Assembly: GCA_902589395.1 (NCBI GenBank)
Contig: CACIST010000003.1
Coordinates: 13,728 to 77,727 of the forward strand
Length of the DNA: 64,000 nt
Direction of reading: 5' to 3'
Source of the DNA: an uncultured Pelagibacteraceae bacterium
GTDB lineage: Bacteria > Pseudomonadota > Alphaproteobacteria > Pelagibacterales > Pelagibacteraceae
The notes below the pieces were generated by a model, which did no database searches, was not told where the DNA came from, and saw only the letters and a list, made by a program, of their open reading frames with translations. Below are positions 25,322 to 62,259 of this stretch, one piece after another (the stretch's first letter is position 1; each line of letters starts with the position of its first letter). Both the position numbers and the translations under genes were made by a program.

Positions 25322-26752
25322 ATGATTGAAAAAAAAAATTTTTATATAAACGGAAAGTGGGTTTCACCTGCTCAGCCAAATGACTTTGAAGTAATAAATC
25401 CCTCAACTGAGGAAGCTTTCGCAATAATATCTTTAGGCTCTGCTGAAGATGCAGATAAAGCAATAAAAGCAGCAAATATTGCATTTGAGACCTGGAGAGA
25501 AACAACAAAAGAAGAAAGATTAGGTTTACTTGAAAAGTTTGATGAAATTTATAAAAGAAGATGGGACGAAATGGTTGAGGCTCAGTCTAAAGAAATGGGA
25601 GCACCACTAGACTTTGCATCAGAAACTCATACTAAAATGGGTGCTGATATTTGTAGAAATAACATTGAGATTTTAAAAGATTTTAATTTTGAACATCAAT
25701 TTGATACTAAATCTAATAACCACATTAGGTATGAACCAATTGGAGTTTGTGGATTAATTACACCTTGGAATTATCCAATGAACCAAATTATTTTAAAAGT
25801 TATTCCAGCTTTAGCTGCTGGATGTACAATGATTTTAAAACCATCTGAGATTGCTCCGGTATCAGCAGTATTGTTTGCTGAAATGATTGATGAAGCTGGC
25901 TTTCCTGCTGGAGTTTTTAATTTAGTGAATGGAAATGGAGAAGTTGTTGGAAATCATATGTCTGGTCATCCTGAAATTGATATGATCTCATTCACAGGAT
26001 CAACAAGAGCTGGAAAACTAATTCAGAAAAATGCAGCTGATACTATAAAAAAAGTAACTCTTGAATTGGGAGGTAAAGGTGGAAATATAGTTTTTGCAGA
26101 CTCATATCCTAATGCTGTTAGAGATGGTGTAAGAAATATAATGAGTAACTCTGGACAGTCATGTGATGCTCCAACAAGAATGTTAGTAGAAAAACCAATA
26201 TATGAAAGAGCTGTTAAAGAAGCTATTGATGAGGCAAACAAAATTAAAGTTGATCTCGCATCTAAAAAAGGTGATCACATTGGACCTGTAGTATCAAAAG
26301 TACAATACGATAAAGTTGTTAATCTTATTAATGAAGGAATTAAAGAAGGTGCAACGTTAGCTGCGGGTGGACCAGATTTGCCAAATGGACTTAACAAAGG
26401 TTATTTTGTTAAACCAACAATTTTTTCAGATGTAAATAATGATATGAAAATTGCAAGAACTGAAATTTTTGGACCTGTGCTTTCAATTATACCATTTGAA
26501 ACTGAGGAAGAAGCAATAGCAATTACAAATGATACATCTTATGGACTTGGCAATTACTTACAAACTGAAGATAAAGAAAAAGCTAAAAGAGTTGCTAGAA
26601 AAGTTAGAGCTGGAACTGTTTATATAAATGGTCAAGCCACTGATACTGGAATGCCTTTTGGTGGTTATAAACAATCTGGTAATGGTCGTGAAGGTGGTGT
26701 CTGGGGCTTCACTGAATATTTAGAGGTTAAAGCAATTACCGGTTGGAATTAA
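25322..26752 (+). CDS. Aldehyde dehydrogenase
   Basis: ITPWNYP, LKPSE, SFTGST, LELGGKG, NSGQSC, EIFGPV. Confidence 0.95.
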   Translation: MIEKKNFYINGKWVSPAQPNDFEVINPSTEEAFAIISLGSAEDADKAIKAANIAFETWRETTKEERLGLLEKFDEIYKRRWDEMVEAQSKEMGAPLDFASETHTKMGADICRNNIEILKDFNFEHQFDTKSNNHIRYEPIGVCGLITPWNYPMNQIILKVIPALAAGCTMILKPSEIAPVSAVLFAEMIDEAGFPAGVFNLVNGNGEVVGNHMSGHPEIDMISFTGSTRAGKLIQKNAADTIKKVTLELGGKGGNIVFADSYPNAVRDGVRNIMSNSGQSCDAPTRMLVEKPIYERAVKEAIDEANKIKVDLASKKGDHIGPVVSKVQYDKVVNLINEGIKEGATLAAGGPDLPNGLNKGYFVKPTIFSDVNNDMKIARTEIFGPVLSIIPFETEEEAIAITNDTSYGLGNYLQTEDKEKAKRVARKVRAGTVYINGQATDTGMPFGGYKQSGNGREGGVWGFTEYLEVKAITGWN

Positions 26753-44168: not shown

Positions 44169-44939
44169 TTAAATATTTTCAATAAATTCTATTAAGTTAT
44201 TTGCAATTTGCTCAGGAGCCTCTATCAAAAAAGAGTGTTTTACCTCTGGTACAATAACTAATTTAGAATCTTTTACCTCGTTTGACATTTTTTTATTATG
44301 AGATGGAGTGCATCCACCATCATTTTCTCCTGTCATAAATAGGCAGGGTTTCTTTATATCTTTTAACCAAGAGATCATCTCAGTTTCCGCATAAATTTTA
44401 AAAACATTTATAAATACATCTTTATCTGTATCTATTACTTGTTTTAATCTTCTAGATACAAGGTCAGGATTTTTTTTAATAAAATTATCTGTAAACCATC
44501 TGTTAGTTAGATTTTTTAATGTTTGTTCAACGCCCTTATCTTTTAGATCTGAAATGACACTCCACACTTTTTGTTTATCTTCATCTGATCTTCCTGCAAC
44601 AGTTGATAATAAGCCAACTGACAAAACTCTTTCTGGAAACTTTTTAGCATAAGCAGGAGCAATCATGCCCCCTAAAGAATGTCCCATAAAATGGGCTTTT
44701 TGGATGTTTGTCTTTTCTCTTACTCTTTCAAGATCTAATACAAGATCATCTAAATTAAAATCTTTATTATCTACAGGTGAATTTCCGTGACCTCTTAAAT
44801 CATATGTCACAACTGTATACATGCTTTTAAGTTTTGGAGTAATAAATCTCCATGCATCTTCAGCACCTCCCACTCCATGAGTTAAAAATATTGCAGGCCC
44901 TGATCCTGTGACTGAGTAATTGCAATCTATGATGCTCAT
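44169..44939 (-). CDS. Alpha/beta hydrolase (PcaD/TgnD-like)
   Basis: HGVG, DLRGHG, GHSLG nucleophile, RWF, TGEND, KHS. Confidence 0.88.
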   Translation of the reverse strand: MSIIDCNYSVTGSGPAIFLTHGVGGAEDAWRFITPKLKSMYTVVTYDLRGHGNSPVDNKDFNLDDLVLDLERVREKTNIQKAHFMGHSLGGMIAPAYAKKFPERVLSVGLLSTVAGRSDEDKQKVWSVISDLKDKGVEQTLKNLTNRWFTDNFIKKNPDLVSRRLKQVIDTDKDVFINVFKIYAETEMISWLKDIKKPCLFMTGENDGGCTPSHNKKMSNEVKDSKLVIVPEVKHSFLIEAPEQIANNLIEFIENI

Positions 44940-44945
44940 AGATAT

Positions 44946-45980
44946 TTAAGCTACTTGTATATTAGATTTTTTGAAATATGGGATTACGTTTTCACCAATT
45001 CTATACATTGACTCTATTAGGTCTTCTTGAGATTGTCCAAAACTTGAACTAAGAATTACCTCATCAACTCCTGCTTCAGCATAAACGCTAAGTTTATCGA
45101 TCATTTCATTTAATGGGCAAATTAAAAGATTTTCTTTTAATTCTTCTAAAGTTTGTTTTCTTGGCAAAGCTTCTATATTCCCTTCTTTTACTTTTCCTGG
45201 TCCTGTAAACATATTGTCAAATCTTTTATAATATTCATAAGCAAGTTTTGTTTTCTCTCTAGCTTCATTTTCATCTTTTGCTAAGTAAGCCATTCGTTGC
45301 ATTGAAAGTTTGAGTAACTTACCTTTTTCACCTAGTTGAATGCAGCCTTCTTTAAATGCATTAACTCTACTTAATAAAAGATCTTTTGTACCTGATAATA
45401 CTGTTGATTGAACATGAAATCCTCTTGAAGCCGCATCTTTTATACTTTCTAAATTCATTGCGGCAACCATAATTGGTATTGGATTACTTATGGGTCGAGG
45501 CATTATGGTTAACGGTTCGAAATCATAGTATTTTCCTTTATACGAAACTTCTTTATTTTTTAATAATAATTGTAGAACCTCTAAAGACTCTACAAATTTT
45601 TCTTTTGATTGTTCTATTGGTGTTCCTAGTCTCTTCATTTCCCATGGAAATGCTCCTCTTCCTACACCTAAGATTAATCTTCCATCAGTTAATATATCAG
45701 CGGTAGCTACTTCACCAGCATATGTTCTCATATCGTGAAGAGGCAAAACAACTATCCCTGTTGTAATTTTAATATTTTTTGTAACTGATGCAATCTTAAC
45801 AGCCATCTGCAATGGTGATGGCATCATTAGTAAGTTAATTAAATGATGCTCTGGTATTGATACCGTTGCATAACCAAGTTTTTCAGCAGTTAAACATTCT
45901 TCAAGCATATTTTTAAAATGCTGCCTTGAACCAATGCTTGTATCTGGCATGTAACTTGTTAAAAAATGATTAAAATCCAT
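44946..45980 (-). CDS. Luciferase-like flavin-dependent monooxygenase (TgnB-related)
   Basis: PEHH, PSP, VLPLHD, DILTDGRLILGVGRGAF.WE. Confidence 0.9.
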   Translation of the reverse strand: MDFNHFLTSYMPDTSIGSRQHFKNMLEECLTAEKLGYATVSIPEHHLINLLMMPSPLQMAVKIASVTKNIKITTGIVVLPLHDMRTYAGEVATADILTDGRLILGVGRGAFPWEMKRLGTPIEQSKEKFVESLEVLQLLLKNKEVSYKGKYYDFEPLTIMPRPISNPIPIMVAAMNLESIKDAASRGFHVQSTVLSGTKDLLLSRVNAFKEGCIQLGEKGKLLKLSMQRMAYLAKDENEAREKTKLAYEYYKRFDNMFTGPGKVKEGNIEALPRKQTLEELKENLLICPLNEMIDKLSVYAEAGVDEVILSSSFGQSQEDLIESMYRIGENVIPYFKKSNIQVA

Positions 45981-46016
45981 ACAACTAAATTACCATTTTA
46001 AGTTTTTTTTAGATAT

Positions 46017-46961
46017 CTATTTTCTAATTTTATTTTCATATTTTTTTCTAAGGTTTTGTAAGTTGACTAAGTACTCATCTCTTATATTTGATAATTGATT
46101 GATTGACTTTCCTTTTGCTTGCTTTTTTGTACCAGAAATCAATCTTTCTGAGAGTTTTTTTGATAATTTTGGTGCTTTAAGCTTAGTCCATGGGAGTTTT
46201 AATGCAGGCCCAAATTGTTCAAGCATATGTTTCATTCCCGCTTTTCCTCCTGCTAAATGAAAAGTTAAAAATGTTCCCATTAATGAGTATCTTAAGCCTG
46301 GACCGTCTTCAATAGCTCTATCTAAATCCTCTGTTGAGGCATACCCTTCATTTATAATATGAAGTGCTTCTCTCCATAAAGCTTCTTGCAGTCTATCAGA
46401 TAGATATCCTGGCAGCTCTTTTTTAAGTATTATTGGGTTCATTGAGATCGATTTATAAAATTTGTTTGCAGCATTTAATGATTTAGAACTTGTTTTTTTT
46501 CCTGGGACTATTTCAACCAAAGGTAGTAAATAAACAGGATTGAATGGATGGGCAATGATACCTCTTTTATTGTTTTTACATTTTGAAAAAATTCTTGAGG
46601 GTAATAATCCAGATGAGCTTGATGATATCAAAACTTCATGTTTACAATTACTTGAAATTTGACTTATTAATTGAGTTTTAAGTTTATAGTTTTCAGGAGC
46701 ACATTCTTGGATTAAGTCTGCATCTTTAACTACACTTTCTAAAGAAGAAAAAAATTTTAAATTATTTAAATTAATTTTTTTTTTATTAAATAGTTTTTTT
46801 ACAAATGGTATGGCTCTTTTTATTTCTTGGATTAAGTTATTTCTTTGAATTAAATTTTTATCGTATGCTAAAACTTTTATGTTGTGAGCCAAGAGTCTTA
46901 TTGTCCACCCTACTCCAATTACTCCTGTGCCGATTACTGCAACTTTTTTAATTTTGGACAT
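46017..46961 (-). CDS. lcdH: L-carnitine dehydrogenase (3-hydroxyacyl-CoA dehydrogenase fold)
   Basis: GTGVIG.GW, QE.APE, SSSSGL.PS, HPFNPVYLLPLVE, DRLQEALWREALH, GPGLR, LAGG.AGM.H...QFGPALKLPWTKL; coupled to a DUF849 gene. Confidence 0.85.
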   Translation of the reverse strand: MSKIKKVAVIGTGVIGVGWTIRLLAHNIKVLAYDKNLIQRNNLIQEIKRAIPFVKKLFNKKKINLNNLKFFSSLESVVKDADLIQECAPENYKLKTQLISQISSNCKHEVLISSSSSGLLPSRIFSKCKNNKRGIIAHPFNPVYLLPLVEIVPGKKTSSKSLNAANKFYKSISMNPIILKKELPGYLSDRLQEALWREALHIINEGYASTEDLDRAIEDGPGLRYSLMGTFLTFHLAGGKAGMKHMLEQFGPALKLPWTKLKAPKLSKKLSERLISGTKKQAKGKSINQLSNIRDEYLVNLQNLRKKYENKIRK

Positions 46962-47848
46962 TACTTGTGTTTTACAAGCTTTAATTTTTTCCTTGTTTCT
47001 TCTGCAGTCATTATTGATGCACCAAGATCTGTTACAATTCTGATCGCTTTTTCAACTAACTGAGCATTGGTTGCAAGTTTACCTTTTGATATATACAAAT
47101 TATCTTCTAAACCAACTCTTGGGTTTCCACCCATAACAACTGTTTGTGCTACAAAAGGCATTTCATTTTTTGAAATTGCAAAGCCTGACCACACTCCTTG
47201 ATCTGGCATTATATCTTTCATTGCTTGCATTGCTAACGGAGTAGCTGGAGCTCCCCAAGGAATACCTAAACACATTTGAAACATTGGGGGATCATCTAAC
47301 AAACCTTCTTTATAAAGTTGAGAGCCAAACCACATATTTCCTAAATCGAATGCCTCTATCTCTGGTTTTACTTTAATTTCCTGTAATTTTTTTGCAGCTT
47401 TTCTTAAATCATTAGGAGTATTAACTGTAATTACTGACCCGTCACCAAAGTTTAATGTTCCGGCATCTAATGTGCAGATTTCTGGCAAGAATTGTTCTGC
47501 ATTGGCTATTCTTTCCATAACATTTGCCATGTCGGTCATAGGGCCAAAATCAAGAGGATTTTTTCCCTGTCCAATGTCCAAATCACCACCCATCCCAGTT
47601 GTTAAGTTTAAAATTACATCAGTTTCACTTGATCTAATTCTATCAACTACTTCTTTATATAATTCCAATCTTCTACTTGGTGTTCCATCCTCTTCTCTTA
47701 CATGAATATGTGCAATTGCTGCTCCAGCTTTTGCTGCCTCTATTGCTGATTTAGCTATTTGATCTGGTGTTTTTGGTAAGTCAGGGTGTTTACTTGCAGT
47801 ATCTCCAGATCCTGTTACAGCACATGATACAAAAACGTTGTTGTTCAT
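46961..47848 (-). CDS. Beta-keto acid cleavage enzyme (DUF849/BKACE; 3-dehydrocarnitine cleavage CdhC-like)
   Basis: CAVTG, AHIHVR Zn motif, NLTTGMGG, PEICTLD.GTLNF, RVGLEDN. Confidence 0.9.
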   Translation of the reverse strand: MNNNVFVSCAVTGSGDTASKHPDLPKTPDQIAKSAIEAAKAGAAIAHIHVREEDGTPSRRLELYKEVVDRIRSSETDVILNLTTGMGGDLDIGQGKNPLDFGPMTDMANVMERIANAEQFLPEICTLDAGTLNFGDGSVITVNTPNDLRKAAKKLQEIKVKPEIEAFDLGNMWFGSQLYKEGLLDDPPMFQMCLGIPWGAPATPLAMQAMKDIMPDQGVWSGFAISKNEMPFVAQTVVMGGNPRVGLEDNLYISKGKLATNAQLVEKAIRIVTDLGASIMTAEETRKKLKLVKHK

Positions 47849-52373: not shown

Positions 52374-53321
52374 ATGGAAGCAAATAATAATACTAAAGGT
52401 ATCCTATTTATTATGATAGGGATGGCTTTTTTTTCAATACAAGACTCGCTTATAAAATATATATTTGAAGAAATTGCTTTGTTTGAATTATATCTTGGTA
52501 GAACTATTGTTCAAGCGACAGTACTTATATCTATATTCTTAATAACAAAGAAAAAATTTACATTAAAAACACATTATCCTTTATTAACATTATTAAGAGT
52601 AATTTGTTTTTTCTTTGGTTTTAGTTTCTTTTATATTTCACTAACGTTTATGTCTTTGGCTATGGTCAGCGCACTATTCTTTTCATGCCCTTTTTTCATG
52701 TCAATATTTGCTAAAGTATTTTTAAAAGAACAAATTGGTATTAGAAGATGGAGTGCAATAACAGTTGGTTTTATTGGTGTTTTAGTTGTGTTAAATCCAA
52801 CTTTAGAAGACTTTAATTTTTTTAAATTAGCGCCAGTTGCATGCTCACTTTGTTATGCATGCTCTATGACAATTACAAAATATACATCGGAAAAAGATAA
52901 TATTTATACTCAGTTAACTTTACTTTATATTTTTGCAGTAATTGCGAGCGTTATAATATTTTTAATAAGTGGTGATGGAAAGTTTAATAATTTTTCTGAT
53001 CCTACAATGCAGTTTATTTTTAGAGAATGGTTTGTAAATCCAGCCGTTTCGTGGCCTTACGTTTTTGTAATGGGAATTGTTGCCTCAATTTCATTTTTTT
53101 GTGTGTTCACTGCATATAGTATAGCTTCTCCGTCCGTCGTCTCTTTATTTGAATATTCATATATAGTTTTTGCGATGATAGCTGGTTACATATTATTTGA
53201 AACTATACCAGTACCTAGAACTTTTCTTGGAGCCGCAATAATTATTGGTGCGGGTGTATATATTTATTTTAGAGAAAAAGTTCGTGGCCAAATGATTGCA
53301 TCAGATACACCTAATAGATGA
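52374..53321 (+). CDS. DMT/EamA family transporter
   Basis: LKEQIGIRRW, GFIGV, FEY motifs; about 10 TM. Confidence 0.88.
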   Translation: MEANNNTKGILFIMIGMAFFSIQDSLIKYIFEEIALFELYLGRTIVQATVLISIFLITKKKFTLKTHYPLLTLLRVICFFFGFSFFYISLTFMSLAMVSALFFSCPFFMSIFAKVFLKEQIGIRRWSAITVGFIGVLVVLNPTLEDFNFFKLAPVACSLCYACSMTITKYTSEKDNIYTQLTLLYIFAVIASVIIFLISGDGKFNNFSDPTMQFIFREWFVNPAVSWPYVFVMGIVASISFFCVFTAYSIASPSVVSLFEYSYIVFAMIAGYILFETIPVPRTFLGAAIIIGAGVYIYFREKVRGQMIASDTPNR

Positions 53322-54289
53322 TAAAAAAAAACTATATTCCAACAATAAATATTTACTCTCTTCTTGGAAAAAATTTTAATACAAGACCTGCTTTTAAAAC
53401 AGTAAAAAAAATTGAGAAAGCTTGTTTAGATGTTGGTTTTTTTCAAATTACAGGTCATGGTATTAAATTAAAAAATATAAGTAAAATTTGTCAGGTTGGG
53501 GAAAATTTTTTCAAACTAAATAAAAAAAATAAACTTAAATTAGCTCCAAAAAAATGGAATAAAAAAAATAAAAATGTTTATAGAGGTTACTTTCCTAATG
53601 ACGTAAATGGTAAAGAGGGATTAGACTTGGGGGATTTAAAAGTAACTAAGAAATATTCGAAAAGAATAAAAAATCAGTACATAGAATATTTAAATATTAA
53701 GCATTCATTTACTACAAATAATATTTCTAAATTATCTGATTATTATGATGATATATTTAACTTAAGTGAAATTCTTTTTAAAAGTATAATTAAAATCTAT
53801 AATAAGGATACCGATATATCAAAAAAAGCATTTTCAAGATTAAAAACTCTAAGCACATTACGTTTTAATTATTACCCTAATCAATCAAAGCCTGTTGAAA
53901 TTTCTAAGCAAGATGGAGTTGCTCTTGGATGTGAAACACATGTAGATAGTGGTATTTTCACAGTACTTTACCAAAACAAAAAGGGTGGTTTACAAGTACA
54001 AAACCGTAAAACAAAAAAATGGCATGATGTTCCCTTTAATAAAAATGCTTTAGTTGTAAATACTGGAAGAGCGCTTGAATATTTAAGTAAGGGAAGATTT
54101 AAAGCAACTAATCATAGGGTATTGTGGAACAAGCAAAAAAGGCTTTCAATTCCTTTCTTTTTTGAACCCTCATATGACTTTAAAATGAATCTCTCATTTT
54201 TAAATAAGAAAAAACTAACTAATAGGGGTCTCAGGTATGATAAATTTCTTAATAAATCCCTTAAAAAATTCATTGAATATCAAAGGTAA
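53318..54289 (+). CDS. Isopenicillin N synthase-like Fe(II)/2OG oxygenase (DIOX_N plus 2OG-FeII_Oxy)
   Basis: AC..VGFFQITGHG, RGY, LRFNYYP, HVDSG, GGLQV, HRV, RLSIPFF. Confidence 0.9.
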   Translation: MIKKNYIPTINIYSLLGKNFNTRPAFKTVKKIEKACLDVGFFQITGHGIKLKNISKICQVGENFFKLNKKNKLKLAPKKWNKKNKNVYRGYFPNDVNGKEGLDLGDLKVTKKYSKRIKNQYIEYLNIKHSFTTNNISKLSDYYDDIFNLSEILFKSIIKIYNKDTDISKKAFSRLKTLSTLRFNYYPNQSKPVEISKQDGVALGCETHVDSGIFTVLYQNKKGGLQVQNRKTKKWHDVPFNKNALVVNTGRALEYLSKGRFKATNHRVLWNKQKRLSIPFFFEPSYDFKMNLSFLNKKKLTNRGLRYDKFLNKSLKKFIEYQR

Positions 54290-54308: not shown

Positions 54309-54366
54309 TAAAGCGATACATAACTCGTCGTAATTTCATATACGAAAGTGGGATCGGTCGTCTTTA
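54309..54366 (+). ncRNA. Structured 5' leader RNA upstream of a luciferase-like monooxygenase (candidate bablM-type motif)
   Basis: GC-enriched island in an AT-rich spacer; nested pairings tcgta/tacga, act/agt, cgat/atcg or aaagcgat/gtcgtcttt; TACTAT -10 box at 54302-54307; GGAGG SD downstream. Confidence 0.5.
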
Positions 54367-54390
54367 AATTAATTTTTAAAGGAGGCTTTA

Positions 54391-55560
54391 ATGAAGTTTG
54401 GTTATTTTTGTAATACTACAAATTGGACACATAAACCATATCACAAATTATTAGATGAAACTAAAGAGATCACAGAATATTGTGATCAAAACAATTGGAA
54501 TTCAATTTGGTTTACCGAACATCATTTTAACCATGAGGGAATGGAGTCGTGTACTAATCCCTTAATGCTAGGAGCAGATGCTGCAGCAAGAACAAAAAAC
54601 ATAAGAATAGGACAAGCAGCAAATGTAATAACTTTTCATAACCCAATAAGATTAGCAGAAGATATTGCTACACTTGATCAACTTTCAAAAGGAAGAGTAG
54701 AAGTTGGTGTTGCAAGAGGTGTTTATGGAAGAGAAGCAATTAATTTAAACAAAGAAGCAGATCTAAAGGATCAAGCAAAAAATTTTAGATTATTTGCTGA
54801 AACATTGGAAATTTTGAAAAAAGCATGGTCAGAGAAATTTTTTAATCATGATGGAGAATTTTATACGTACCCATCACCAAATTATGTTTGGCAGCATGAC
54901 ATGAGCCCACCAAGTGAAGATTTTATGAATATGGAAGATAGCACTATGAAAAAAATTAGTGTTCTTCCAAAGCCTTATCAAAATCCACACCCTCCAATAC
55001 ATCAAGTTGTTGATGGTATAAGATCTATAGAGTGGGCTGCAGAAAATAATATAAATGTAATTATGTGGATACCTACAGTTAAAGCATTGAAAATAAGATT
55101 TGAAGCATACAAAAATAAAAGATCTGAAGTTACTAAAAAAAATGTTCCTTTAGGTGAAGGAGTTACTCTCGTCAGAGATATGTTTGTCGCTGAGACTATG
55201 GAAGAGGCCAAAGAGAAAGCTGGGCAACATATGGTAAATTATATGAAATGGGTTTGTCATTGGAGAGGTCTTGGTAATCACATGGATCCTGGTGAAGAGC
55301 TTCCAGAAACAAAGGGTAAATTAGATCTTCTTAATTACGAGTTTTTACATAAGCGAAATATGTTATTTGGTACTCCTGAATATGTAACAGATAAGATTAA
55401 AGAACTTCAATCAGAGCTTAATCTTCAAAATCTTCAAGTCTGGTCTAATTTTCCGGGTGTTAAACATGAAGATTGTATGAAAAGTATTAAATTATTCACT
55501 GAAAAAGTAATGCCTAATTTTAAAGATGATCTAGATACTGAAGTTAAAAAAGTATCGTGA
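54391..55560 (+). CDS. Luciferase-like flavin-dependent monooxygenase
   Basis: IWFTEHHF, NP, IRIGQ, HNPIRLAEDIATLDQLSKGRVEVGVARG, PKPYQNPHPP, FGTPE; strong SD ggagg. Confidence 0.93.
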   Translation: MKFGYFCNTTNWTHKPYHKLLDETKEITEYCDQNNWNSIWFTEHHFNHEGMESCTNPLMLGADAAARTKNIRIGQAANVITFHNPIRLAEDIATLDQLSKGRVEVGVARGVYGREAINLNKEADLKDQAKNFRLFAETLEILKKAWSEKFFNHDGEFYTYPSPNYVWQHDMSPPSEDFMNMEDSTMKKISVLPKPYQNPHPPIHQVVDGIRSIEWAAENNINVIMWIPTVKALKIRFEAYKNKRSEVTKKNVPLGEGVTLVRDMFVAETMEEAKEKAGQHMVNYMKWVCHWRGLGNHMDPGEELPETKGKLDLLNYEFLHKRNMLFGTPEYVTDKIKELQSELNLQNLQVWSNFPGVKHEDCMKSIKLFTEKVMPNFKDDLDTEVKKVS

Positions 55561-57257
55561 TTAAGTCCAAGAATACCTTGACCGGTGGTCAAGCGGCAGT
55601 GAAATCACTAAAAAAAGAAAAAGTTAAACACGTATTTGGTTTAATTGGTTCAGCAACCATGGAGATGTTTGATGCGTTGTATCATGAAAAAAAAATTAAA
55701 TTTATAGGTGTAAGAGATGAAAGAACAGGAACACATATGGCCGATGGTTATGCAAGAGCTTCTAATCAACCAGGTGTAATAATTGCTGGTCAAAACGGTC
55801 CAGGAGCAACTAATTTAGTCACAGGTATTGCTCAGGCAAAAGCAGCATTTTCGCCTGTTGTATCAATTGCAGGTTTATATTCTACTAAAGATAAGATGGA
55901 AGATGCCTTTCAAGGACTTGATCAACAATCACTTTTTGATCCTATAACAAAAAAAACATGGACAGTAAAAAAGGCAAGTCATATACCGACAGCCTTTAGA
56001 GATGCTTTTAACCTTGCAATGTCACCACGCAGAGGACCAGTTTGTATAAACCTTCCAAGAAATGTTCTTTCTGATAGTTTAAAGTTTAAGATTAATGAAA
56101 ATAAAAAATCTTATAAAACTGAAAGTGACTTAAAAAGTAAAAAGAATTTAATTAATAGAACTATAAAACTTATTCTCAACTCAAAAAAAACAGTAATTGT
56201 TGCTGGAGGAGGAATAAAATATAATTCAAAATTTAAGTCTGTAACAAAGCTTGCTGAATTTTTAAATATTCCAATTGTAACTGCAGCAGGACATGGAGAT
56301 GCAATTCCCTTCAGTCATAAGTTAAATGCTGGACAAATGGGGCCTAGAGGAAATATTGTTGCATCTAGATTAGTCAAAGAAGCAGAGCTAATTATTGCAA
56401 TTGGTACAAGACTTGGTTTCAATTCTACTTTCTATTCGTATGACAATATAAATAAAAATGCGAAAATTGTACAAATTGAGTTAGAAAAAACAATGATAGG
56501 AAGATACTTTCCAGTTAATGTGGGTATTCATGGCGATGCTGCACTTGTGACAGATCAGATCTTAAATGAAATAAAAAAACGAAAAAAAATTTTTAATTAT
56601 AAAGAGTGGACAAATAGTTTTTTATTCGAAAGATCAAAATTTCTTAAAGATAGAGAAAATATAAAGTCAAAAAATTTTCCAATACAACCAAATGGTCTAT
56701 TCAAAGAACTAAGAAAAGTACTACCAAAGAATACTGCAATAACACTTGATGCTGGAACGCTTTGCCTTCAAGCAACAGATGCTTTAGAATATTACAATCC
56801 TCCTGCCCTTTTCACACCTCTTGATTTTGGTTTAGTAGGCTTCTCATTTGCATGTGGTTTGGGAATAAAGGTTGCAAAACCTAATAAAACAGTCGTTAGT
56901 TTGATGGGTGATGGCGGATTTGGAATGACTATTTCTGAATTAAGTACTGCTGTAGAACATGGCATTAACACAATTACAATTGTAATGAATAATAAGAGTT
57001 GGGGAGCAGAAAAAGCTTATCAAAAAGATTTCTATGGTGAAAGATATTTAGGAGCTGATATTCAAAGTCCTCCTTTTGATGAAGTTGCGAAACTATACGG
57101 TGCCAAAGGAATTAAAGTTAAAAAATTATCAGAAGTTAATGAGGCAGTAAAAAGTGCATTAAAAGTAAATAAACCAGTTGTTATAGATGTTGATGTAGAT
57201 CCAAAAGCGTTATACAGTTTTAGGAGAGATAGCTTTACACATAGAATAAGAAAATGA
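55557..57257 (+). CDS. TPP-dependent enzyme, sulfoacetaldehyde acetyltransferase (Xsc)-like
   Basis: FGLIGSA, QNGPG, MGDGGF...MNN, WGAEK motifs shared with Xsc as I recall it. Confidence 0.8.
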   Translation: MIKSKNTLTGGQAAVKSLKKEKVKHVFGLIGSATMEMFDALYHEKKIKFIGVRDERTGTHMADGYARASNQPGVIIAGQNGPGATNLVTGIAQAKAAFSPVVSIAGLYSTKDKMEDAFQGLDQQSLFDPITKKTWTVKKASHIPTAFRDAFNLAMSPRRGPVCINLPRNVLSDSLKFKINENKKSYKTESDLKSKKNLINRTIKLILNSKKTVIVAGGGIKYNSKFKSVTKLAEFLNIPIVTAAGHGDAIPFSHKLNAGQMGPRGNIVASRLVKEAELIIAIGTRLGFNSTFYSYDNINKNAKIVQIELEKTMIGRYFPVNVGIHGDAALVTDQILNEIKKRKKIFNYKEWTNSFLFERSKFLKDRENIKSKNFPIQPNGLFKELRKVLPKNTAITLDAGTLCLQATDALEYYNPPALFTPLDFGLVGFSFACGLGIKVAKPNKTVVSLMGDGGFGMTISELSTAVEHGINTITIVMNNKSWGAEKAYQKDFYGERYLGADIQSPPFDEVAKLYGAKGIKVKKLSEVNEAVKSALKVNKPVVIDVDVDPKALYSFRRDSFTHRIRK

Positions 57258-57841
57258 AATTAGAATTACGTAAGTTCACTAAATTTGTAGATAAGACTTT
57301 TATTGAAGGTGGAAAAGAAGCTAAAGAACCTGTTTTGATGGTTTCTGTTGCTGCAGTTTTTAAAAATCCTTGGGATGGAAAAGGTTTTGTGGAGGACTTA
57401 AAACCAATTATTTTAGATCTAGCTCCTAAACTTGGAGATTTATTAGTTCCTGAACTTATAAAAGAAATAGGCTCTCCTGATAAAATATTAGCATATGGGA
57501 AAGCAGGTGTGGTTGGACTGAATGGAGAAATAGAACATGCATCAGCATTTATTCATACATTAAGATTTGGAAATAAGTTCAGAGATGCTGTTGGAGGAAC
57601 TTCTTATTTAAGTTTTACGAATACAAGAGGTCCGGCTGGATCAAAAATATCTATTCCAATGATGCACAAAACCGACTCTGGTTTAAGACCATATTATCTT
57701 ACACATGAGTTTACAATTCATGATGCTCCATTTGATGATGAAATTGTTATTGCAATTGGTGGCGCCTCGACAGGTAGAGCTCATGCAAGAACAGGCGATA
57801 GATACCAAGATATGAAGGAGATGGGCATTGATCCAAAATAA
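57254..57841 (+). CDS. DUF1185 'amino acid synthesis' family protein
   Basis: AAVFKNPW.G.GFVEDL, AYGKAGVVG.NGE.EH.SA.IHTLRFGN, I.DAP..DEIV, GR.HAR.GDRY.D. Confidence 0.88.
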   Translation: MKLELRKFTKFVDKTFIEGGKEAKEPVLMVSVAAVFKNPWDGKGFVEDLKPIILDLAPKLGDLLVPELIKEIGSPDKILAYGKAGVVGLNGEIEHASAFIHTLRFGNKFRDAVGGTSYLSFTNTRGPAGSKISIPMMHKTDSGLRPYYLTHEFTIHDAPFDDEIVIAIGGASTGRAHARTGDRYQDMKEMGIDPK

Positions 57842-57843
57842 TA

Positions 57844-58617
57844 ATGATCAATGCAACAGATTCTAAAGGTACATTCTATAAACTAAATCAAAAAAAAGGA
57901 ATTCCAATAGTGTTTATTCATGGTGTGGGTCTTGATCATAATATATGGGATCTACAAATTAATGAATTTGATAACACAGTTTTAATTTATGATATCCTTG
58001 GACACGGTAGAACACCTTTAAATAAAGAAAAAATAAGTTTTGATGATTTTTCAGATCAAATTATTGATCTTATTGATGAATTAAAATTTGATAAAATTCA
58101 CCTTATTGGATTTTCAATAGGCTCTTTGATTGCAAGAAACTTTGCAACGAGATTTAATGATAGATTGAAATCCCTAACATTGTTGTGCTCAATATTTAAT
58201 AGATCTGATAATGAACAGAAAATAGTAAATGAAAGGTTTGAACAGACAAAAAAAGATAAAAAACTGACAAAAGACGCACTCAATAGATGGTTTAATAAGG
58301 ATTTTATTGAGAAAAATCCTCTAATTTCAGATAAAATTTTCTCAATTCTTAACAATAATAATATGGACAACTTTATTAAAGTTTACTCGTTGTTTGTAAA
58401 TCACAAAGATAACGAAAAATTTGAAAATATTAATGTCAAAACACTTGTGATGACTGGAGAAGGTGATGTAGGCTCAACTCCAGAAATGTCTAATAATCTA
58501 AGTAAAAAAATTAAAAACTCTGAGGTAAAAATAATACCTGTAGGCAAACATCTATGTAGTATTGAATGCTCTTATGATGTAAATAAAGCAATTAAAGATC
58601 ATATACAAAATGCCTGA
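57844..58617 (+). CDS. Alpha/beta hydrolase (TgnD-like)
   Basis: IHGVGL, YD..GHG, GFSIG nucleophile, S.F.R, NRWF, TGEGD.GSTPEM, KHL. Confidence 0.87.
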   Translation: MINATDSKGTFYKLNQKKGIPIVFIHGVGLDHNIWDLQINEFDNTVLIYDILGHGRTPLNKEKISFDDFSDQIIDLIDELKFDKIHLIGFSIGSLIARNFATRFNDRLKSLTLLCSIFNRSDNEQKIVNERFEQTKKDKKLTKDALNRWFNKDFIEKNPLISDKIFSILNNNNMDNFIKVYSLFVNHKDNEKFENINVKTLVMTGEGDVGSTPEMSNNLSKKIKNSEVKIIPVGKHLCSIECSYDVNKAIKDHIQNA

Positions 58618-60091
58618 ATTAAAAAAATATAAAATGTTTATAGGGGGACAATGGGTTGACTCTGATACTAAAAAAACTTTTGAAACTTTAAATCCGGAGG
58701 ATAATAAACCATGGGCTATTGTTCCTGAGGCAAGTGCTTCTGATGTAGATAAAGCAGTTCAAGCAGCTCAAAAAGCCTTTGAAGGAGATTGGCCTAAAAT
58801 ATTACCGCGTGAAAGAGCAAAGTTTCTAAGAGCTATTGGAAATAAGCTTAGAGATAACGCAGGATTACTTGGAAAAATTGAAACTATAGATACTGGAAAA
58901 CTTTATAGAGAAACAAATAAACAGGCAAATTATATTGCTGAGTACTATGATTATTATGCTGGAATGGCAGACAAGGTCGAGGGCACAGTTCTGCCAATAG
59001 ATAAACCAAATATTCAAGCTATAACTTCAAGAATACCTATTGGTGTTATTGCTGCGATTGTTCCATGGAATTCTCAAATGTTTTTAACAGCTACAAAACT
59101 TGCCCCTGCTTTAGCAATGGGAAACACTGTGGTTATTAAATCCTCTGAACTTGCTCCAGCAGTAATGTTTGAATTTGCAAAACTGATTGAAGAAACTGGT
59201 ATTCCTAAAGGAGTAGTTAATGTTATTACAGGATTTGGAGAACCATGTGGAAAGGCTTTAACTACACATAATTTAGTTGAAAAAGTTGCCTTTACAGGAG
59301 GACCTGAAACTGCAAGACATATTATTAGAAATTCAGCAGAAAATTTATCAGAAGTAAGCTTAGAACTTGGGGGTAAAAGTCCCGTTGCTGTATTTAATGA
59401 TGCTCATCAAGAAAATGCTATTAATGGAATTACTGCAGGAATATTTGGTGCTAGCGGACAGAGTTGTATTGCTGGTTCAAGGTTATATCTACAAAAAGGA
59501 ATTTACGATGAGTTCCTTGATAAACTCACAAAAAGAGCTGAAAAAATAAAAATTGGTGCTCCCATGGATCCAGATACAGAAATGGGACCTTTGAGTAATT
59601 ATAAACAGCTAGAAATTATTGAAAAAAACATAAAAAAAACCACAGAACAAGGTGGAAAAATAATATGTGGTGGTAAAAGACATCCATTTTCAAATGAGGG
59701 ATACTACTTTCCACCCACAATAATTGAATGTGATAATCACAATCTTCCAACCGCAGAAAATGAGCTTTTTGGACCAGTTTTATCAGTTATGAAATTTGAT
59801 ACAGAAAATGAGGTAATAGAGAAAATGAACGATAATCAATATGGATTATCTTCAGGAGTTTATACTAGTGACTTCTCTAGAGGTCTAAGAGTTTCTAATG
59901 CAATTAGAGCAGGTATAACGTTTGTAAATACTTATCGATTGATTTCTCCTTCAGCACCTTTTGGTGGAATTAAAGATAGTGGATATGGAAAGGAAGCGGG
60001 AATGGACTCAATAAAGGATTATACTAGAGTTAAGACAACTTGGTATTACACATCTGATGAACCAACTTTAGATCCTTTCTCTATAAGATAA
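58610..60091 (+). CDS. Aldehyde dehydrogenase (TgnC-like)
   Basis: ET.DTGK..RET, YYAG.ADK.EG..LPIDK, VPWNSQ, AFTGGPETARHIIRNSAENL, GQSCIAG. Confidence 0.92.
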   Translation: MPELKKYKMFIGGQWVDSDTKKTFETLNPEDNKPWAIVPEASASDVDKAVQAAQKAFEGDWPKILPRERAKFLRAIGNKLRDNAGLLGKIETIDTGKLYRETNKQANYIAEYYDYYAGMADKVEGTVLPIDKPNIQAITSRIPIGVIAAIVPWNSQMFLTATKLAPALAMGNTVVIKSSELAPAVMFEFAKLIEETGIPKGVVNVITGFGEPCGKALTTHNLVEKVAFTGGPETARHIIRNSAENLSEVSLELGGKSPVAVFNDAHQENAINGITAGIFGASGQSCIAGSRLYLQKGIYDEFLDKLTKRAEKIKIGAPMDPDTEMGPLSNYKQLEIIEKNIKKTTEQGGKIICGGKRHPFSNEGYYFPPTIIECDNHNLPTAENELFGPVLSVMKFDTENEVIEKMNDNQYGLSSGVYTSDFSRGLRVSNAIRAGITFVNTYRLISPSAPFGGIKDSGYGKEAGMDSIKDYTRVKTTWYYTSDEPTLDPFSIR

Positions 60092-60094
60092 TTT

Positions 60095-60952
60095 TTGTCT
60101 GCAAAACATACTTTACTAATTTTATTTGTCGTATTTTTATTAGGAAGTGCTTATCCAACTGGCAAGCTTGGATTAAACGACACTATTCCACCAATTCTTT
60201 TTGGCTCATTAAGAATGGCTGTTGTTTTTATTTGTTTAATTCCATTTTTTAAAATTCAAATAATAGATAAAAAATATATTGTTCCTTTAATTGGTTTTTC
60301 ATTATGTTTTGGTGTTGCAGTAAATATGTTTTTATATTTGTCAATAAATGCATCAAGTATACTTGCACCAATTACAATAGGGGCTCAACTTTCAATTCCC
60401 TTTGGGATTATATTAAGCTCAATATTTTTAAATGAAAAAATAAGTTATAAAAAATGGATTTTAATTATGATATCTTTTTTTGGTATTGTAATACTTGCAT
60501 TTGATCCAAAAGTAGTTGAGGAAATAATAGGATCACTTCTTATTTGTGGTATGGCTTTTTTCTACGGACTATCCCAAGTATTTTCGAGATATTTAAAAAA
60601 ATTAGATGTTAAATTTACAAATACTATAATGAGCTTTACAGGGTTTGTAATTTTAATAATATTATCTGCAATATTTGAGGGTAATACTTTCCAAACAATA
60701 AAAAATATCAGTTTAGGGAGTTGGTTTACAGTTATATATGCCGGAGCAATTATTTCTTTACTAGGACACTTAATGATGTTCTATCTTTATAAATTTTATC
60801 CTCTAGATATGGTATTACCATTCTATGCTTTATTTCCTGTATTTGGTTTAATCCTCACTTTTTTTATTTTTGGAGAGATTCCATCTTCAATAACTGTAAT
60901 AGGAGGAATAATTGTCATAACTTCTGTGTTTTTTGCTCAAAAAATGAGATAA
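60095..60952 (+). CDS. DMT/EamA family transporter
   Basis: About 10 TM; PPILF...R, QLSIPF, FLNEKI, FGEIP. Confidence 0.87.
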   Translation: MSAKHTLLILFVVFLLGSAYPTGKLGLNDTIPPILFGSLRMAVVFICLIPFFKIQIIDKKYIVPLIGFSLCFGVAVNMFLYLSINASSILAPITIGAQLSIPFGIILSSIFLNEKISYKKWILIMISFFGIVILAFDPKVVEEIIGSLLICGMAFFYGLSQVFSRYLKKLDVKFTNTIMSFTGFVILIILSAIFEGNTFQTIKNISLGSWFTVIYAGAIISLLGHLMMFYLYKFYPLDMVLPFYALFPVFGLILTFFIFGEIPSSITVIGGIIVITSVFFAQKMR

Positions 60953-61023: not shown

Positions 61024-62259
61024 ATGGCTGAAACAAAAAATAAAAATATAGGAATAATGATTGCTATCGCAATTATTGTGATTGCAGCAATAGTTTATTT
61101 TACTCAACAAAAACCTACAGATAAGGTTGTTGAAAAAGAAGAAATTAAAATGGGGATTATATTAGGTTTTACTGGACCAATTGAGTCTTTAACTCCTGCA
61201 ATGGCAGCATCAGCTGAACTTGCATTTAAAGAAGCATCAGATTCAGGGTCATTACTAGGTGGATCTACTATTAAAGCTGAAAGAGCAGATTCTACATGTG
61301 TAGACTCAGCTGCAGCAACAGCAGCTGCTGAAGGTTTGGTCTCAGGAGGAGTTGTGGCTATTATGGGTGCAGATTGCTCAGGTGTGACAGGGGCAATTGC
61401 AACTAATGTTGCTGTTCCAAATGGTATAGTCATGATATCACCATCTGCAACATCACCTGGTCTTACTGACCTTAAAGATAATGGACTTTTCTTCAGAACT
61501 GCACCATCTGATGCAAGAGGCGGTCAAGTATTAGCTGATATAACTAAAGATAGAGGAGTAAAAAGTATAGCGGTAACTCACACAAATAATGACTATGGAA
61601 AAGGTTTGGCTGATGTTTATGTGTCTGCAGTAAAATCACATGGTATAAATGTTACTACAGTTACTGCACACGAAGAAGGTAAAGCTGACTACGGAGCAGA
61701 AGTTGCAACTTTAGCAGCTGCTGGTGGAGATGCTTTGGCTGTGCTTGGATACTTAGATCAAGCAGGTGGATCAATCATTGGTGGATCAATAGACTCTGGT
61801 GCTTTTGATGTATTTGTTCTTTCAGATGGTATGATCGGTGACTCTTTAACTGACAGATTTGGAAATGATCTTAATAAATCATTTGGATCTTTGCCAGGAT
61901 CAATGGGTAAAGGTGCTTCAATATTTAAAAATGTTGCTAGCACGGCAGGAATTGATTCATCAGGACCTTACACTTCAGAATCTTATGATGCAGCAGCTTT
62001 AATTGTATTGGCAATGCAAGCCGGTGGTAAAGCTGATAAGGCTACTGTTCAAGCAAATGTAATGTCTGTAGCAAATGCTCCAGGAGAAAAAATATATCCA
62101 GGAGAATTAAAAAAAGCATTAGACTTACTTGCTAGTGGTAAAGCAGTAAACTACGAGGGAGCATCTAGTGTTGAATTTACTGATGTTGGCGAAGCATCTG
62201 GTGCCTTTATTGAAAAAGAAATTAAAGGTGGAAAGTTCAAAGATAAAAAACAAAGATAA
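61024..62259 (+). CDS. Branched-chain amino acid ABC substrate-binding protein (LivJ/K family)
   Basis: N-terminal membrane anchor, GFTGPIES, GADCSG, ISPSATSP, FFRTAPSD, NNDYGKG, ESYDAA. Confidence 0.93.
   Translation: MAETKNKNIGIMIAIAIIVIAAIVYFTQQKPTDKVVEKEEIKMGIILGFTGPIESLTPAMAASAELAFKEASDSGSLLGGSTIKAERADSTCVDSAAATAAAEGLVSGGVVAIMGADCSGVTGAIATNVAVPNGIVMISPSATSPGLTDLKDNGLFFRTAPSDARGGQVLADITKDRGVKSIAVTHTNNDYGKGLADVYVSAVKSHGINVTTVTAHEEGKADYGAEVATLAAAGGDALAVLGYLDQAGGSIIGGSIDSGAFDVFVLSDGMIGDSLTDRFGNDLNKSFGSLPGSMGKGASIFKNVASTAGIDSSGPYTSESYDAAALIVLAMQAGGKADKATVQANVMSVANAPGEKIYPGELKKALDLLASGKAVNYEGASSVEFTDVGEASGAFIEKEIKGGKFKDKKQR

What the first reader, a model, noticed from the sequence alone, without database searches (positions are those of the whole stretch)
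54391..60952. Trigonelline-pathway-like block (DUF1185, hydrolase, ALDH) fused into a new six-gene operon
Seen: LLM, TPP enzyme, DUF1185, alpha/beta hydrolase, ALDH and DMT with overlaps or gaps of 3 nt or less. From memory of the A. baylyi tgn cluster, the ALDH (AFTGGPETARHIIRNSAENL, ADK.EG..LPIDK) matches TgnC, the hydrolase matches TgnD, and DUF1185 corresponds to TgnF. Here they are joined to a non-TgnB monooxygenase and an Xsc-like enzyme under a structured leader, while the TgnB-like gene and a second hydrolase lie about 11 kb away. Inference: the best candidate for an undescribed system, a two-monooxygenase, two-hydrolase pathway for N-methylpyridinium betaines or related algal zwitterions in a SAR11-type bacterium.
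Basis: partly seen in the sequence, partly recalled or inferred. Interest (0 to 1): 0.85.

Follow-up and report, generated by a model that had tools for sequence, protein, structure and literature searches.

The report
SAR11 trigonelline-like ring-opening operon
This real and very common operon of the ocean bacterium SAR11 has relatives of three trigonelline-breakdown enzymes, a different, uncharacterised oxygenase and a conserved folded RNA leader, so it likely opens the ring of a still unidentified nitrogen-ring nutrient, while the second oxygenase nearby is a separate cassette that most carriers lack.

Summary
The six genes exist as described (gaps -4, -4, +2, -8, +3 nt). The conserved core is four genes: LLM1, DUF1185, hydrolase, ALDH. 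LLM1 occurs in 67 of 97 near-complete genomes of the genus; the ThDP gene is optional. ALDH (52%) and DUF1185 (54-57%) belong to the TgnC/TgnF families but form their own subclade; the hydrolase is only 22-24% like TgnD-type proteins. Neither monooxygenase is a TgnB orthologue (25-28% to proteins named TgnB). The two-monooxygenase idea fails: 63 of 67 LLM1 genomes lack LLM2, and in one genome LLM2-Hyd2 lies 609 kb away beside another ALDH. Homarine has a published, different pathway (homABCD). The ThDP enzyme is a sister branch of Xsc, not Xsc, and follows Tgn-type hydrolases in other Alphaproteobacteria too. The 56-nt leader shows compensatory pairing and an anti-RBS hairpin: a likely orphan translational ON riboswitch. 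No TgnA-type flavin reductase was found in the genus. Best reading: Tgn-type oxidative ring opening of an unidentified N-substituted pyridinium-like compound; trigonelline itself remains possible. This scan already reported the operon and leader on other SAR11 genomes (8 notes seen). New variant of a known kind.

The parts
54310..54365 (+). Conserved structured RNA leader (candidate orphan riboswitch aptamer): P1 - ACAUAA/AUC(R) loop - P2 - AAG bulge - variable P3
   Evidence: Core invariant in 49 distinct copies; 7 of 13 pairs with two-sided changes, 0/500 shuffles; pattern in 18 of 61 genomes, always once and in front of LLM1; no Rfam family
54357..54385 (+). Predicted anti-RBS hairpin: the 3' arm of P1 can instead pair with the Shine-Dalgarno AGGAGG (54380-54385); predicted translational ON switch
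   Evidence: Mean SD pairing probability 0.77 against 0.53 for a shuffled anti-SD segment, real above control in 89 of 99 leaders; inference
54391..55560 (+). LLM1, luciferase-like flavin monooxygenase, 389 aa, uncharacterised subfamily; predicted ring-opening step; core gene
   Evidence: PF00296; model pLDDT 94 with luciferase-type barrel, best solved matches 22-23% identity; 24.8-27.0% to TgnB-named proteins; own clade
55557..57257 (+). ThDP enzyme, 566 aa, sister branch of sulfoacetaldehyde acetyltransferase Xsc; optional gene
   Evidence: TIGR03457 386.8 bits, cut-off 676.4; separate from the Xsc clade; full-length in 9 of 61 genomes; follows Tgn-type hydrolases in G196, G124, G113
57254..57841 (+). 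DUF1185 / PF06684 protein, 195 aa, TgnF family; most conserved gene of the operon; core gene
   Evidence: 217 bits; single copy in the genome; 54-57% to tgn-cluster copies; 87-100% across 68 loci
57844..58617 (+). Hyd1, alpha/beta hydrolase, 257 aa, Ser-Asp-His triad intact, fast-evolving; positional counterpart of TgnD; core gene
   Evidence: PF00561; triad in alignment; 22-24% to tgn-cluster hydrolases; 47-100% across 68 loci
58610..60091 (+). ALDH, 493 aa, TgnC family, SAR11-specific subclade, catalytic Glu and Cys motifs intact; core gene
   Evidence: 52% to tgn-cluster ALDHs, which are 74-81% alike among themselves; tree and motifs
60095..60952 (+). DMT/EamA transporter, 285 aa; appended in most genus-level copies, absent from the f2-family copies examined
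   Evidence: PF00892; 64 of 68 loci; not next to the ALDH in L132-L136
53318..54289 (+). 2OG-Fe(II) oxygenase just upstream; possible accessory gene, not part of the core
   Evidence: PF03171/PF14226; upstream in 56 of 68 loci; in L171 it lies between the leader and LLM1
44169..45980 (-). Hyd2 (44169-44939) and LLM2 (44946-45980): separate two-gene cassette, judged NOT part of this pathway
   Evidence: 5 of 151 genomes; in G521 609 kb from LLM1 beside a different ALDH; nearest relatives are Roseovarius plasmid LLMs at 45-50%

Best explanation
This is a conserved SAR11 operon with a four-gene core (LLM1, DUF1185, hydrolase, ALDH) that likely breaks down an unidentified N-substituted pyridinium-like compound by trigonelline-type chemistry, under a likely ligand-sensing RNA leader. 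Inferred steps: (1) ligand binding stabilises P1 and frees the ribosome-binding site; (2) LLM1 uses reduced FMN and O2 to open the ring to an N-formyl enamine aldehyde; (3) the TgnC-family ALDH oxidises the aldehyde; (4) the hydrolase releases formate, the amine and a C4 semialdehyde; (5) DUF1185 assists handling of that semialdehyde, as TgnF is said to; (6) where present, the Xsc-sister ThDP enzyme would turn an alpha-substituted semialdehyde into an acyl-phosphate, while strains without it would oxidise the semialdehyde with a general dehydrogenase. Shown: gene content, order, conservation, family membership, leader pairing. Inferred: all chemistry and the substrate. The source of reduced flavin is unresolved.
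For: Core order LLM1-[TPP]-DUF-Hyd-ALDH in 68 of 68 loci holding both LLM1 and DUF1185 (the 80 loci were the best ALDH matches of 208, so mostly close kin) and in both SAR11 families. DUF1185 is in 18 of the 20 LLM1 genomes. The same trio goes with an LLM in tgn-type clusters (L107-L109, anchored by JGI names at 79-83% identity), in a second type with another LLM (L105, L106, L298) and in an Arthrobacter plasmid (L309): a module with exchangeable oxygenases. Outside SAR11, G362 places two LLM1-subfamily genes (43-45%) beside a TgnC-family ALDH, DUF1185 and hydrolase and also holds a TgnB-like LLM (61-64%) elsewhere, which fits different oxygenases for different rings. ThDP orthologues (60-62%) sit right after Tgn-type hydrolases in three unrelated genomes, placing the enzyme downstream of hydrolysis. 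Catalytic motifs are intact. Leader.
Against: No biochemical data. LLM1 is only 25-27% identical to TgnB-type enzymes, no closer than to unrelated LLMs, and other LLM1-subfamily members lie beside acyl-CoA dehydrogenases or transporters without the trio (L124-L128). No PF01613 flavin reductase in 0 of 37 genus genomes, the 100% complete G013 included. The hydrolase link to TgnD is weak (22-24%). DUF1185 also occurs in a coumarin cluster (PMC7913881), so it is no pyridine marker. No TgnE-type gene in the operon; the best SSADH-like gene (499 bits, cut-off 646) lies elsewhere. The Tgn chemistry is recalled; Perchat 2018 was not held.
Confidence: 0.5

Rival explanations
1. The substrate is trigonelline itself: SAR11 uses a non-orthologous oxygenase in place of TgnB, with the same downstream trio.
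For: No TgnB orthologue in 61 SAR11 genomes (best full-length 27-28%), so nothing else found would serve; the operon is in 67 of 97 near-complete genus genomes, fitting a ubiquitous compound; trigonelline is a measured marine metabolite (PMC8269262 passages); an SSADH-like gene exists elsewhere in all 5 genomes tested.
Against: ALDH and DUF1185 are as far from the tgn clade (52-57%) as the second, non-tgn cluster type is (54-62%); G362 holds both a TgnB-like and LLM1-type oxygenases; a ThDP enzyme has no role in the recalled trigonelline route.
Confidence: 0.22
2. The substrate is a different heterocycle (pterin, purine-like or imidazolium) or a sulfonated betaine; the leader would be a THF-II-like variant, or the ThDP enzyme would release sulfite as Xsc does.
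For: The leader core shares AAC-UC-G and GGGA with the THF-II junction residues listed in PMC9881143; the ThDP enzyme shares the WGAEK motif with Xsc, and its next-nearest clade lies among betaine demethylase genes.
Against: In the THF-II register the ligand-pairing U44 is an invariant A (a change that abolishes THF binding in that paper), and its P1 pairs show no two-sided change; Rfam folE gives no match at E<=10. G004 and G038 keep a true Xsc besides this enzyme. No pterin or sulfonate genes are conserved nearby.
Confidence: 0.15
3. One reading: LLM1 and LLM2 with both hydrolases form one pathway for N-methylpyridinium betaines including homarine.
For: All genomes with LLM2 also have LLM1 (3 of 3, 5 of 5), four of the five within about 9 kb; in L096 Hyd2-LLM2 lies 3.3 kb downstream of the ALDH.
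Against: 63 of 67 LLM1 genomes lack LLM2; with LLM1 in 69% of the genus, a few kin all carrying both is expected; in G521 LLM2-Hyd2 has its own ALDH 609 kb away; homarine is handled by homABCD.
Confidence: 0.04

Closest known systems
Trigonelline cluster tgnABCDEF of Acinetobacter baylyi ADP1 (Perchat et al. 2018; paper not held, content recalled; TgnA/TgnB roles seen in PMC13236597 and PMC8269262, TgnF in PMC7913881), represented here by tgn-type clusters L107-L109
   Same: LLM + DUF1185 + alpha/beta hydrolase + TgnC-family ALDH in one operon; ALDH 52%, DUF1185 54-57%
   Different: Oxygenase from another LLM clade (23-27%); no flavin reductase, GntR regulator or SSADH in the operon; optional ThDP enzyme; RNA leader in place of a protein regulator; A. 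baylyi sequences themselves were not available
Uncharacterised second Tgn-like cluster type (Parasedimentitalea pW43B, Aminobacter pSR3, G196)
   Same: Same trio (ALDH 53-55%, DUF1185 55%, hydrolase 29-32%); G196 has the same ThDP subfamily (62%) after the hydrolase
   Different: Its LLM is sister to TgnB (42%), 26-27% to LLM1; often with CoA transferase, enoyl-CoA hydratase, 3-hydroxyacyl-CoA dehydrogenase and beta-keto acid cleavage enzyme
Sulfoacetaldehyde acetyltransferase Xsc (TIGR03457)
   Same: Nearest named ThDP family; shares GDG and WGAEK motifs
   Different: 387 bits against cut-off 676; about 28-32% identity; separate clade; coexists with true Xsc
Homarine pathway homABCDER (PMC13236597)
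   Same: N-methylpyridinium ring opening in SAR11, includes an ALDH
   Different: HomA is described as FAD-binding, HomB is about 1,700 nt and HomC a predicted peptidase; no LLM, DUF1185 or alpha/beta hydrolase described.
THF-II riboswitch (folE motif; PMC6800512, PMC9881143)
   Same: Small alphaproteobacterial translational leader, two stems around an asymmetric loop with AAC-UC-G and GGGA
   Different: THF-II is an OFF switch of Rhizobiales folE with the RBS inside P1; here the RBS is downstream, predicted ON, and the U44 equivalent is A

Membership tests
tgn trigonelline cluster | TgnB-clade luciferase-like oxygenase | tested here: not met
   LLM1 24.8-27.0%, LLM2 25.7-27.5% to 8 JGI-named proteins; both outside the TgnB clade in a quick tree
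tgn trigonelline cluster | TgnC-family ALDH | tested here: met
   Inside the 99-supported family with tgn-type ALDHs, but in its own subclade; 52% against 74-81% within the tgn clade
tgn trigonelline cluster | TgnF / DUF1185 gene | tested here: met
   PF06684 217 bits; TgnF called a DUF1185 homologue in PMC7913881
tgn trigonelline cluster | TgnD-type hydrolase | tested here: inconclusive
   22-24% identity; best genome hit for 2 of 3 tgn-type hydrolases; tree unresolved at the base
tgn trigonelline cluster | TgnA flavin reductase (PF01613) in or near the cluster | tested here: not met
   0 of 37 genus genomes, control 13 of 14; five plasmid reductases gave no tblastn hit in G000
tgn trigonelline cluster | TgnE SSADH in the cluster | tested here: not met
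   Not in the operon; SSADH-like gene under the cut-off on contig C5
tgn trigonelline cluster | Turnover of trigonelline to succinate, methylamine, formate | not testable with these tools
   Needs assay
Xsc (TIGR03457) | Score above curated cut-off and place in the Xsc clade | tested here: not met
   386.8 against 676.4 bits; separate clade; true Xsc beside it in G004 and G038
homABCD homarine pathway | HomA-HomB oxygenase pair, HomC peptidase, HomD ALDH | tested here: inconclusive
   Enzyme classes in the paper text do not match this operon; no Hom sequences could be obtained
THF-II riboswitch | C22 and U44 ligand pair, RBS within P1, folE downstream, Rfam match | tested here: not met
   U44 equivalent is invariant A; no two-sided change in that register's P1; no Rfam match
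Riboswitch (general) | Conserved core with compensatory stems, 5' of one gene family, overlapping an expression platform | tested here: met
Riboswitch (general) | Direct ligand binding and ligand-dependent expression | not testable with these tools
   Needs in-line probing and a reporter

The most novel reading that the evidence does not exclude
About two thirds of near-complete genomes of this SAR11 genus carry an undescribed pathway for an abundant but unrecognised marine N-heteroaromatic compound: a new ring-cleaving monooxygenase family switched on by a new riboswitch class that binds that compound, plus an Xsc-sister ThDP enzyme that eliminates a ring substituent from the semialdehyde and yields an acyl-phosphate for substrate-level ATP.
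Probability: 0.3. Interest if true: 0.8.

Novelty: new variant of a known kind. Interest (0 to 1): 0.52.

Why it matters
SAR11 is the most abundant ocean bacterial group and keeps few genes, so a catabolic operon in 67 of 97 near-complete genomes points to a widely used carbon and nitrogen source not yet assigned. The RNA leader makes the question directly testable: its ligand should be the substrate or an intermediate, and one in-line probing screen could name both a new riboswitch class and the pathway. I found no paper on this operon or leader (searches; the library lacks most subscription papers). The scan has reported it before on other genomes, so this instance mainly adds the refutation of the two-oxygenase model and the placement of the ThDP enzyme.

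Tried and rejected
Two-locus pathway: rejected. LLM2 as TgnB: rejected. ThDP enzyme as Xsc: rejected. Flavin reductase hunt: PF01613 none; the one PF03358 hit (contig C24) is mainly a flavodoxin-2 family protein in an unrelated setting, a weak candidate at best; f2-family genomes have a PF01613 gene in 22 of 24 regardless of the operon. Rfam: no match at gathering score in the window; three sub-threshold chance hits near the leader; none over six relatives' leaders. Single-sequence folding is not significant. THF-II register: not supported. A resemblance to NAD+-II riboswitches was only recalled; I saw the search listing and did not test it. Promoter/terminator scan at chance level. Single-sequence AlphaFold failed (pLDDT 34); with alignment it gave only generic luciferase-fold matches. 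PDB sequence searches named no close characterised relative for LLM1, LLM2, ThDP enzyme, hydrolase, ALDH or the downstream binding protein. Perchat 2018 and the Arthrobacter pyridine paper were not held; paper searches returned nothing relevant. Hom gene ids were not found in the readable supplements; one scanned file could not be read. The protein atlas gave no result. Metatranscriptome contigs of four studies cover the operon and some bridge ThDP-DUF1185-hydrolase, but contigs cannot show level, strand or one transcript, and DNA may be in them. All trees are quick trees; the careful ThDP tree did not finish.


Full report
Observation. The six ORFs are present at the stated coordinates with the stated families and junctions of -4, -4, +2, -8 and +3 nt. 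GC stays at 32-33% across them, like the rest of the window. The genome is 1.18 Mb and 80% complete; the closest ALDH relatives are in records titled Pelagibacteraceae. The second monooxygenase LLM2 (44946-45980) and hydrolase Hyd2 (44169-44939) lie on the other strand 8.4-10 kb upstream, behind a beta-keto acid cleavage enzyme and a 3-hydroxyacyl-CoA dehydrogenase.

Conservation. Of 80 loci fetched with the ALDH (the best of 208, so mostly close kin), 68 hold both LLM1 and DUF1185; all 68 also hold the hydrolase and ALDH, 64 the ThDP gene and 64 the DMT. In 61 genomes drawn as relatives, LLM1 is in 20, DUF1185 in 20 with 18 shared, the full-length ThDP gene in 9. LLM1 is followed directly by DUF1185, without the ThDP gene, in G002, G013 (100% complete), G016, G018, G030, G032, G039 and G449. 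In 150 family genomes drawn with a completeness filter of 88%, LLM1 is in 67 of 97 of the genus and in 0 of 53 of nine other genera (one of the 67, G557, is flagged unpublished). The order also holds in a second SAR11 family at about 55% LLM identity. So the unit is a four-gene core with optional additions. DUF1185 is the most conserved gene (minimum 87%) and the hydrolase the least (minimum 47%).

Relation to Tgn. The A. baylyi paper was not held, so the pathway's chemistry is recalled. As stand-ins I used plasmid clusters with GntR, DUF1185, hydrolase, flavin reductase, LLM and ALDH, one with SSADH (L107-L109). Eight proteins named 'flavin-dependent trigonelline monooxygenase, oxygenase component' by JGI are 79-83% identical to the L108 LLM, which anchors the clade by annotation, not by assay. 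Against these clusters the window's ALDH is 52% (74-81% among them), DUF1185 54-57% (73-87%), Hyd1 22-24%, LLM1 23-26% and LLM2 26-30%; against the eight named proteins LLM1 is 24.8-27.0% and LLM2 25.7-27.5%. Quick trees put both window LLMs outside the TgnB clade and its sister and the ALDH in its own subclade of the TgnC family. No TgnB orthologue was found in 61 SAR11 genomes. A second cluster type with the same trio and another LLM exists (L105, L106), and a further one in Arthrobacter. The trio thus looks like a module paired with different oxygenases. LLM1's link to it is not confined to SAR11: among 400 Alphaproteobacteria, 5 non-SAR11 genomes had LLM1-subfamily genes, and one, G362, has two of them beside ALDH, DUF1185, hydrolase and an isochorismatase-family gene. 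In the other four genomes the trio was not nearby, which tells against a fixed link. G362 also has a TgnB-like LLM (61-64%) without the trio next to it (70% complete).

The two-locus claim. LLM2 is in 3 of 61 and 5 of 151 genomes. All carriers also have LLM1, but 63 of the 67 LLM1 genomes lack LLM2. In G521 the LLM2-Hyd2 pair is 609 kb from LLM1, beside a different ALDH (35% to the operon's) and a betaine-type ABC transporter. LLM2's nearest relatives are three Roseovarius plasmid LLMs at 45-50%. It is a separate cassette. Homarine is covered by homABCD, reported in 120 Pelagibacter genomes and described with other enzyme types (PMC13236597: outline, parts 1-3 of 13, discussion and a supplement search seen).

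ThDP enzyme. It scores 387 bits on the Xsc model (cut-off 676). G004 and G038 carry both it and a true Xsc (971 and 955 bits); no true Xsc was found in the incomplete G000. In a quick tree it is separate from Xsc and AHAS; it keeps the ThDP motif and Xsc's WGAEK. Orthologues at 60-62% follow a Tgn-type hydrolase in G196 (ALDH-LLM-hydrolase-ThDP), G124 and G113; a fourth, G415, is cut by a contig end. The next clade (39-43%, including a Ruegeria pomeroyi megaplasmid gene) lies among betaine demethylase genes. Inference: it acts on the aldehyde left by the hydrolase. By analogy with Xsc (own knowledge) that aldehyde would carry a leaving group next to the carbonyl, which would mean a ring substituent other than trigonelline's carboxylate. 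This is a hypothesis; the gene's absence from many strains weakens it.

Leader. The 56-nt element at 54310-54365 matches no Rfam family and is unremarkable as a single fold. Its core pattern occurs once in 18 of 61 genomes, each time just before LLM1, in none of the 41 without LLM1, with 0 control matches. A capped metagenome scan gave 116 matches: 81 precede an LLM1-type start; by my reading 16 more are true copies (cut by contig ends, with a variant start, followed by the 2OG oxygenase, or by unrelated DNA) and 19 are chance. On 49 distinct copies (57 qualified; 8 with a length change just after the core were left out) 7 of 13 pairs change on both sides, 0/500 shuffles, 93% of cells paired against 33-44% for slid controls; related sequences can inflate this. 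One P2 pair alternates G-U (64) and A-C (19) with A-U (14) and G-C (6) in 103 leaders. The 3' arm of P1 can instead pair with the Shine-Dalgarno: mean pairing 0.77 against 0.53 in controls, higher in 89 of 99, which fits an ON switch.

Gap. No PF01613 flavin reductase in 37 genomes of the genus. How LLM1 gets reduced flavin is unexplained. The LLM1 model is confident (pLDDT 94) and a typical luciferase barrel, with no solved relative above 23% identity.

Expression. Fourteen RNA runs hold 26-38% of the stretch's words; contigs of four runs from four studies cover it. This shows presence in RNA libraries, not level or transcript structure.

Verdict. A real, widespread SAR11 operon that likely works like the trigonelline pathway but is not a member of it by its oxygenase and reductase. 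Substrate unknown: another N-substituted pyridinium-like ring (0.5), trigonelline (0.22), another heterocycle or sulfonate (0.15), the two-oxygenase model (0.04). Not found in print in the searches made, but reported before by this scan on other genomes. Other papers seen: PMC8269262, PMC7913881 and PMC2954203 as passages.

Noticed in passing
window 44169-47848 (-); L315 (G521:C1); L110: LLM2-Hyd2 is a rare two-gene cassette (5 of 151 genomes) found in three settings: behind BKACE and 3-hydroxyacyl-CoA dehydrogenase here, downstream of the operon in L096, and with its own ALDH in G521. Its relatives on a Roseovarius plasmid sit with amidohydrolases, flavin reductases and an ALDH 54% identical to the window's ALDH at 25322-26752: possibly another ring-opening pathway.
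   Followed up: partly
L105:3911-14395, L106:5027-14519, L298:8917-14033: A second uncharacterised Tgn-like cluster type whose LLM is sister to TgnB (42%); it comes either with carnitine-type genes (CoA transferase, hydratase, 3HCDH, BKACE, GlxA regulator, RidA) or with the ThDP enzyme.
   Followed up: partly
L139, L157, L170, L200, L218, L228 (metagenome loci): Leader copies followed by unrelated DNA instead of LLM1; three share a similar downstream stretch.
   Followed up: no
window 53318-54289; L171:703-1671: The 2OG-Fe(II) oxygenase is upstream of the leader in 56 of 68 loci, and in one metagenome contig lies directly under the leader ahead of LLM1, so it may act on the same compound.
   Followed up: partly
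window 61024-62259: Branched-chain-type binding protein 71 nt after the DMT gene, syntenic in nearly all genus loci and 5.5 kb from LLM1 in G038; no close solved relative; very deep in RNA contigs. Candidate uptake protein, untested.
   Followed up: partly
L307:2351-11671 (Ruegeria pomeroyi megaplasmid); L303, L305, L306: A sister clade of the ThDP enzyme sits with MttB-family methyltransferase, GcvT-type or flavin demethylases and a class III aminotransferase: an apparent unassigned betaine pathway.
   Followed up: partly
L079:3381-3680, L097:4234-5271, L096:7632-7994: Different extra ORFs are inserted inside the operon in single lineages (between ThDP and DUF1185, or hydrolase and ALDH), so the junctions tolerate insertions.
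   Followed up: no
window 1-53300: The whole window is a dense catabolic region for methylated and betaine-like compounds: several ABC transporters, GcvT-type demethylases, homocysteine methyltransferase-like genes, butyrobetaine hydroxylase-like, TauD, GMC oxidoreductase, HalD-like oxygenase, a second ThDP enzyme at 12602-14344 (names for 1-38500 from translations, not scanned).
   Followed up: no
genus g1: No PF01613 flavin reductase in 37 genomes of the genus although many carry a two-component-type monooxygenase; 22 of 24 genomes of the sister family have one.
   Followed up: partly
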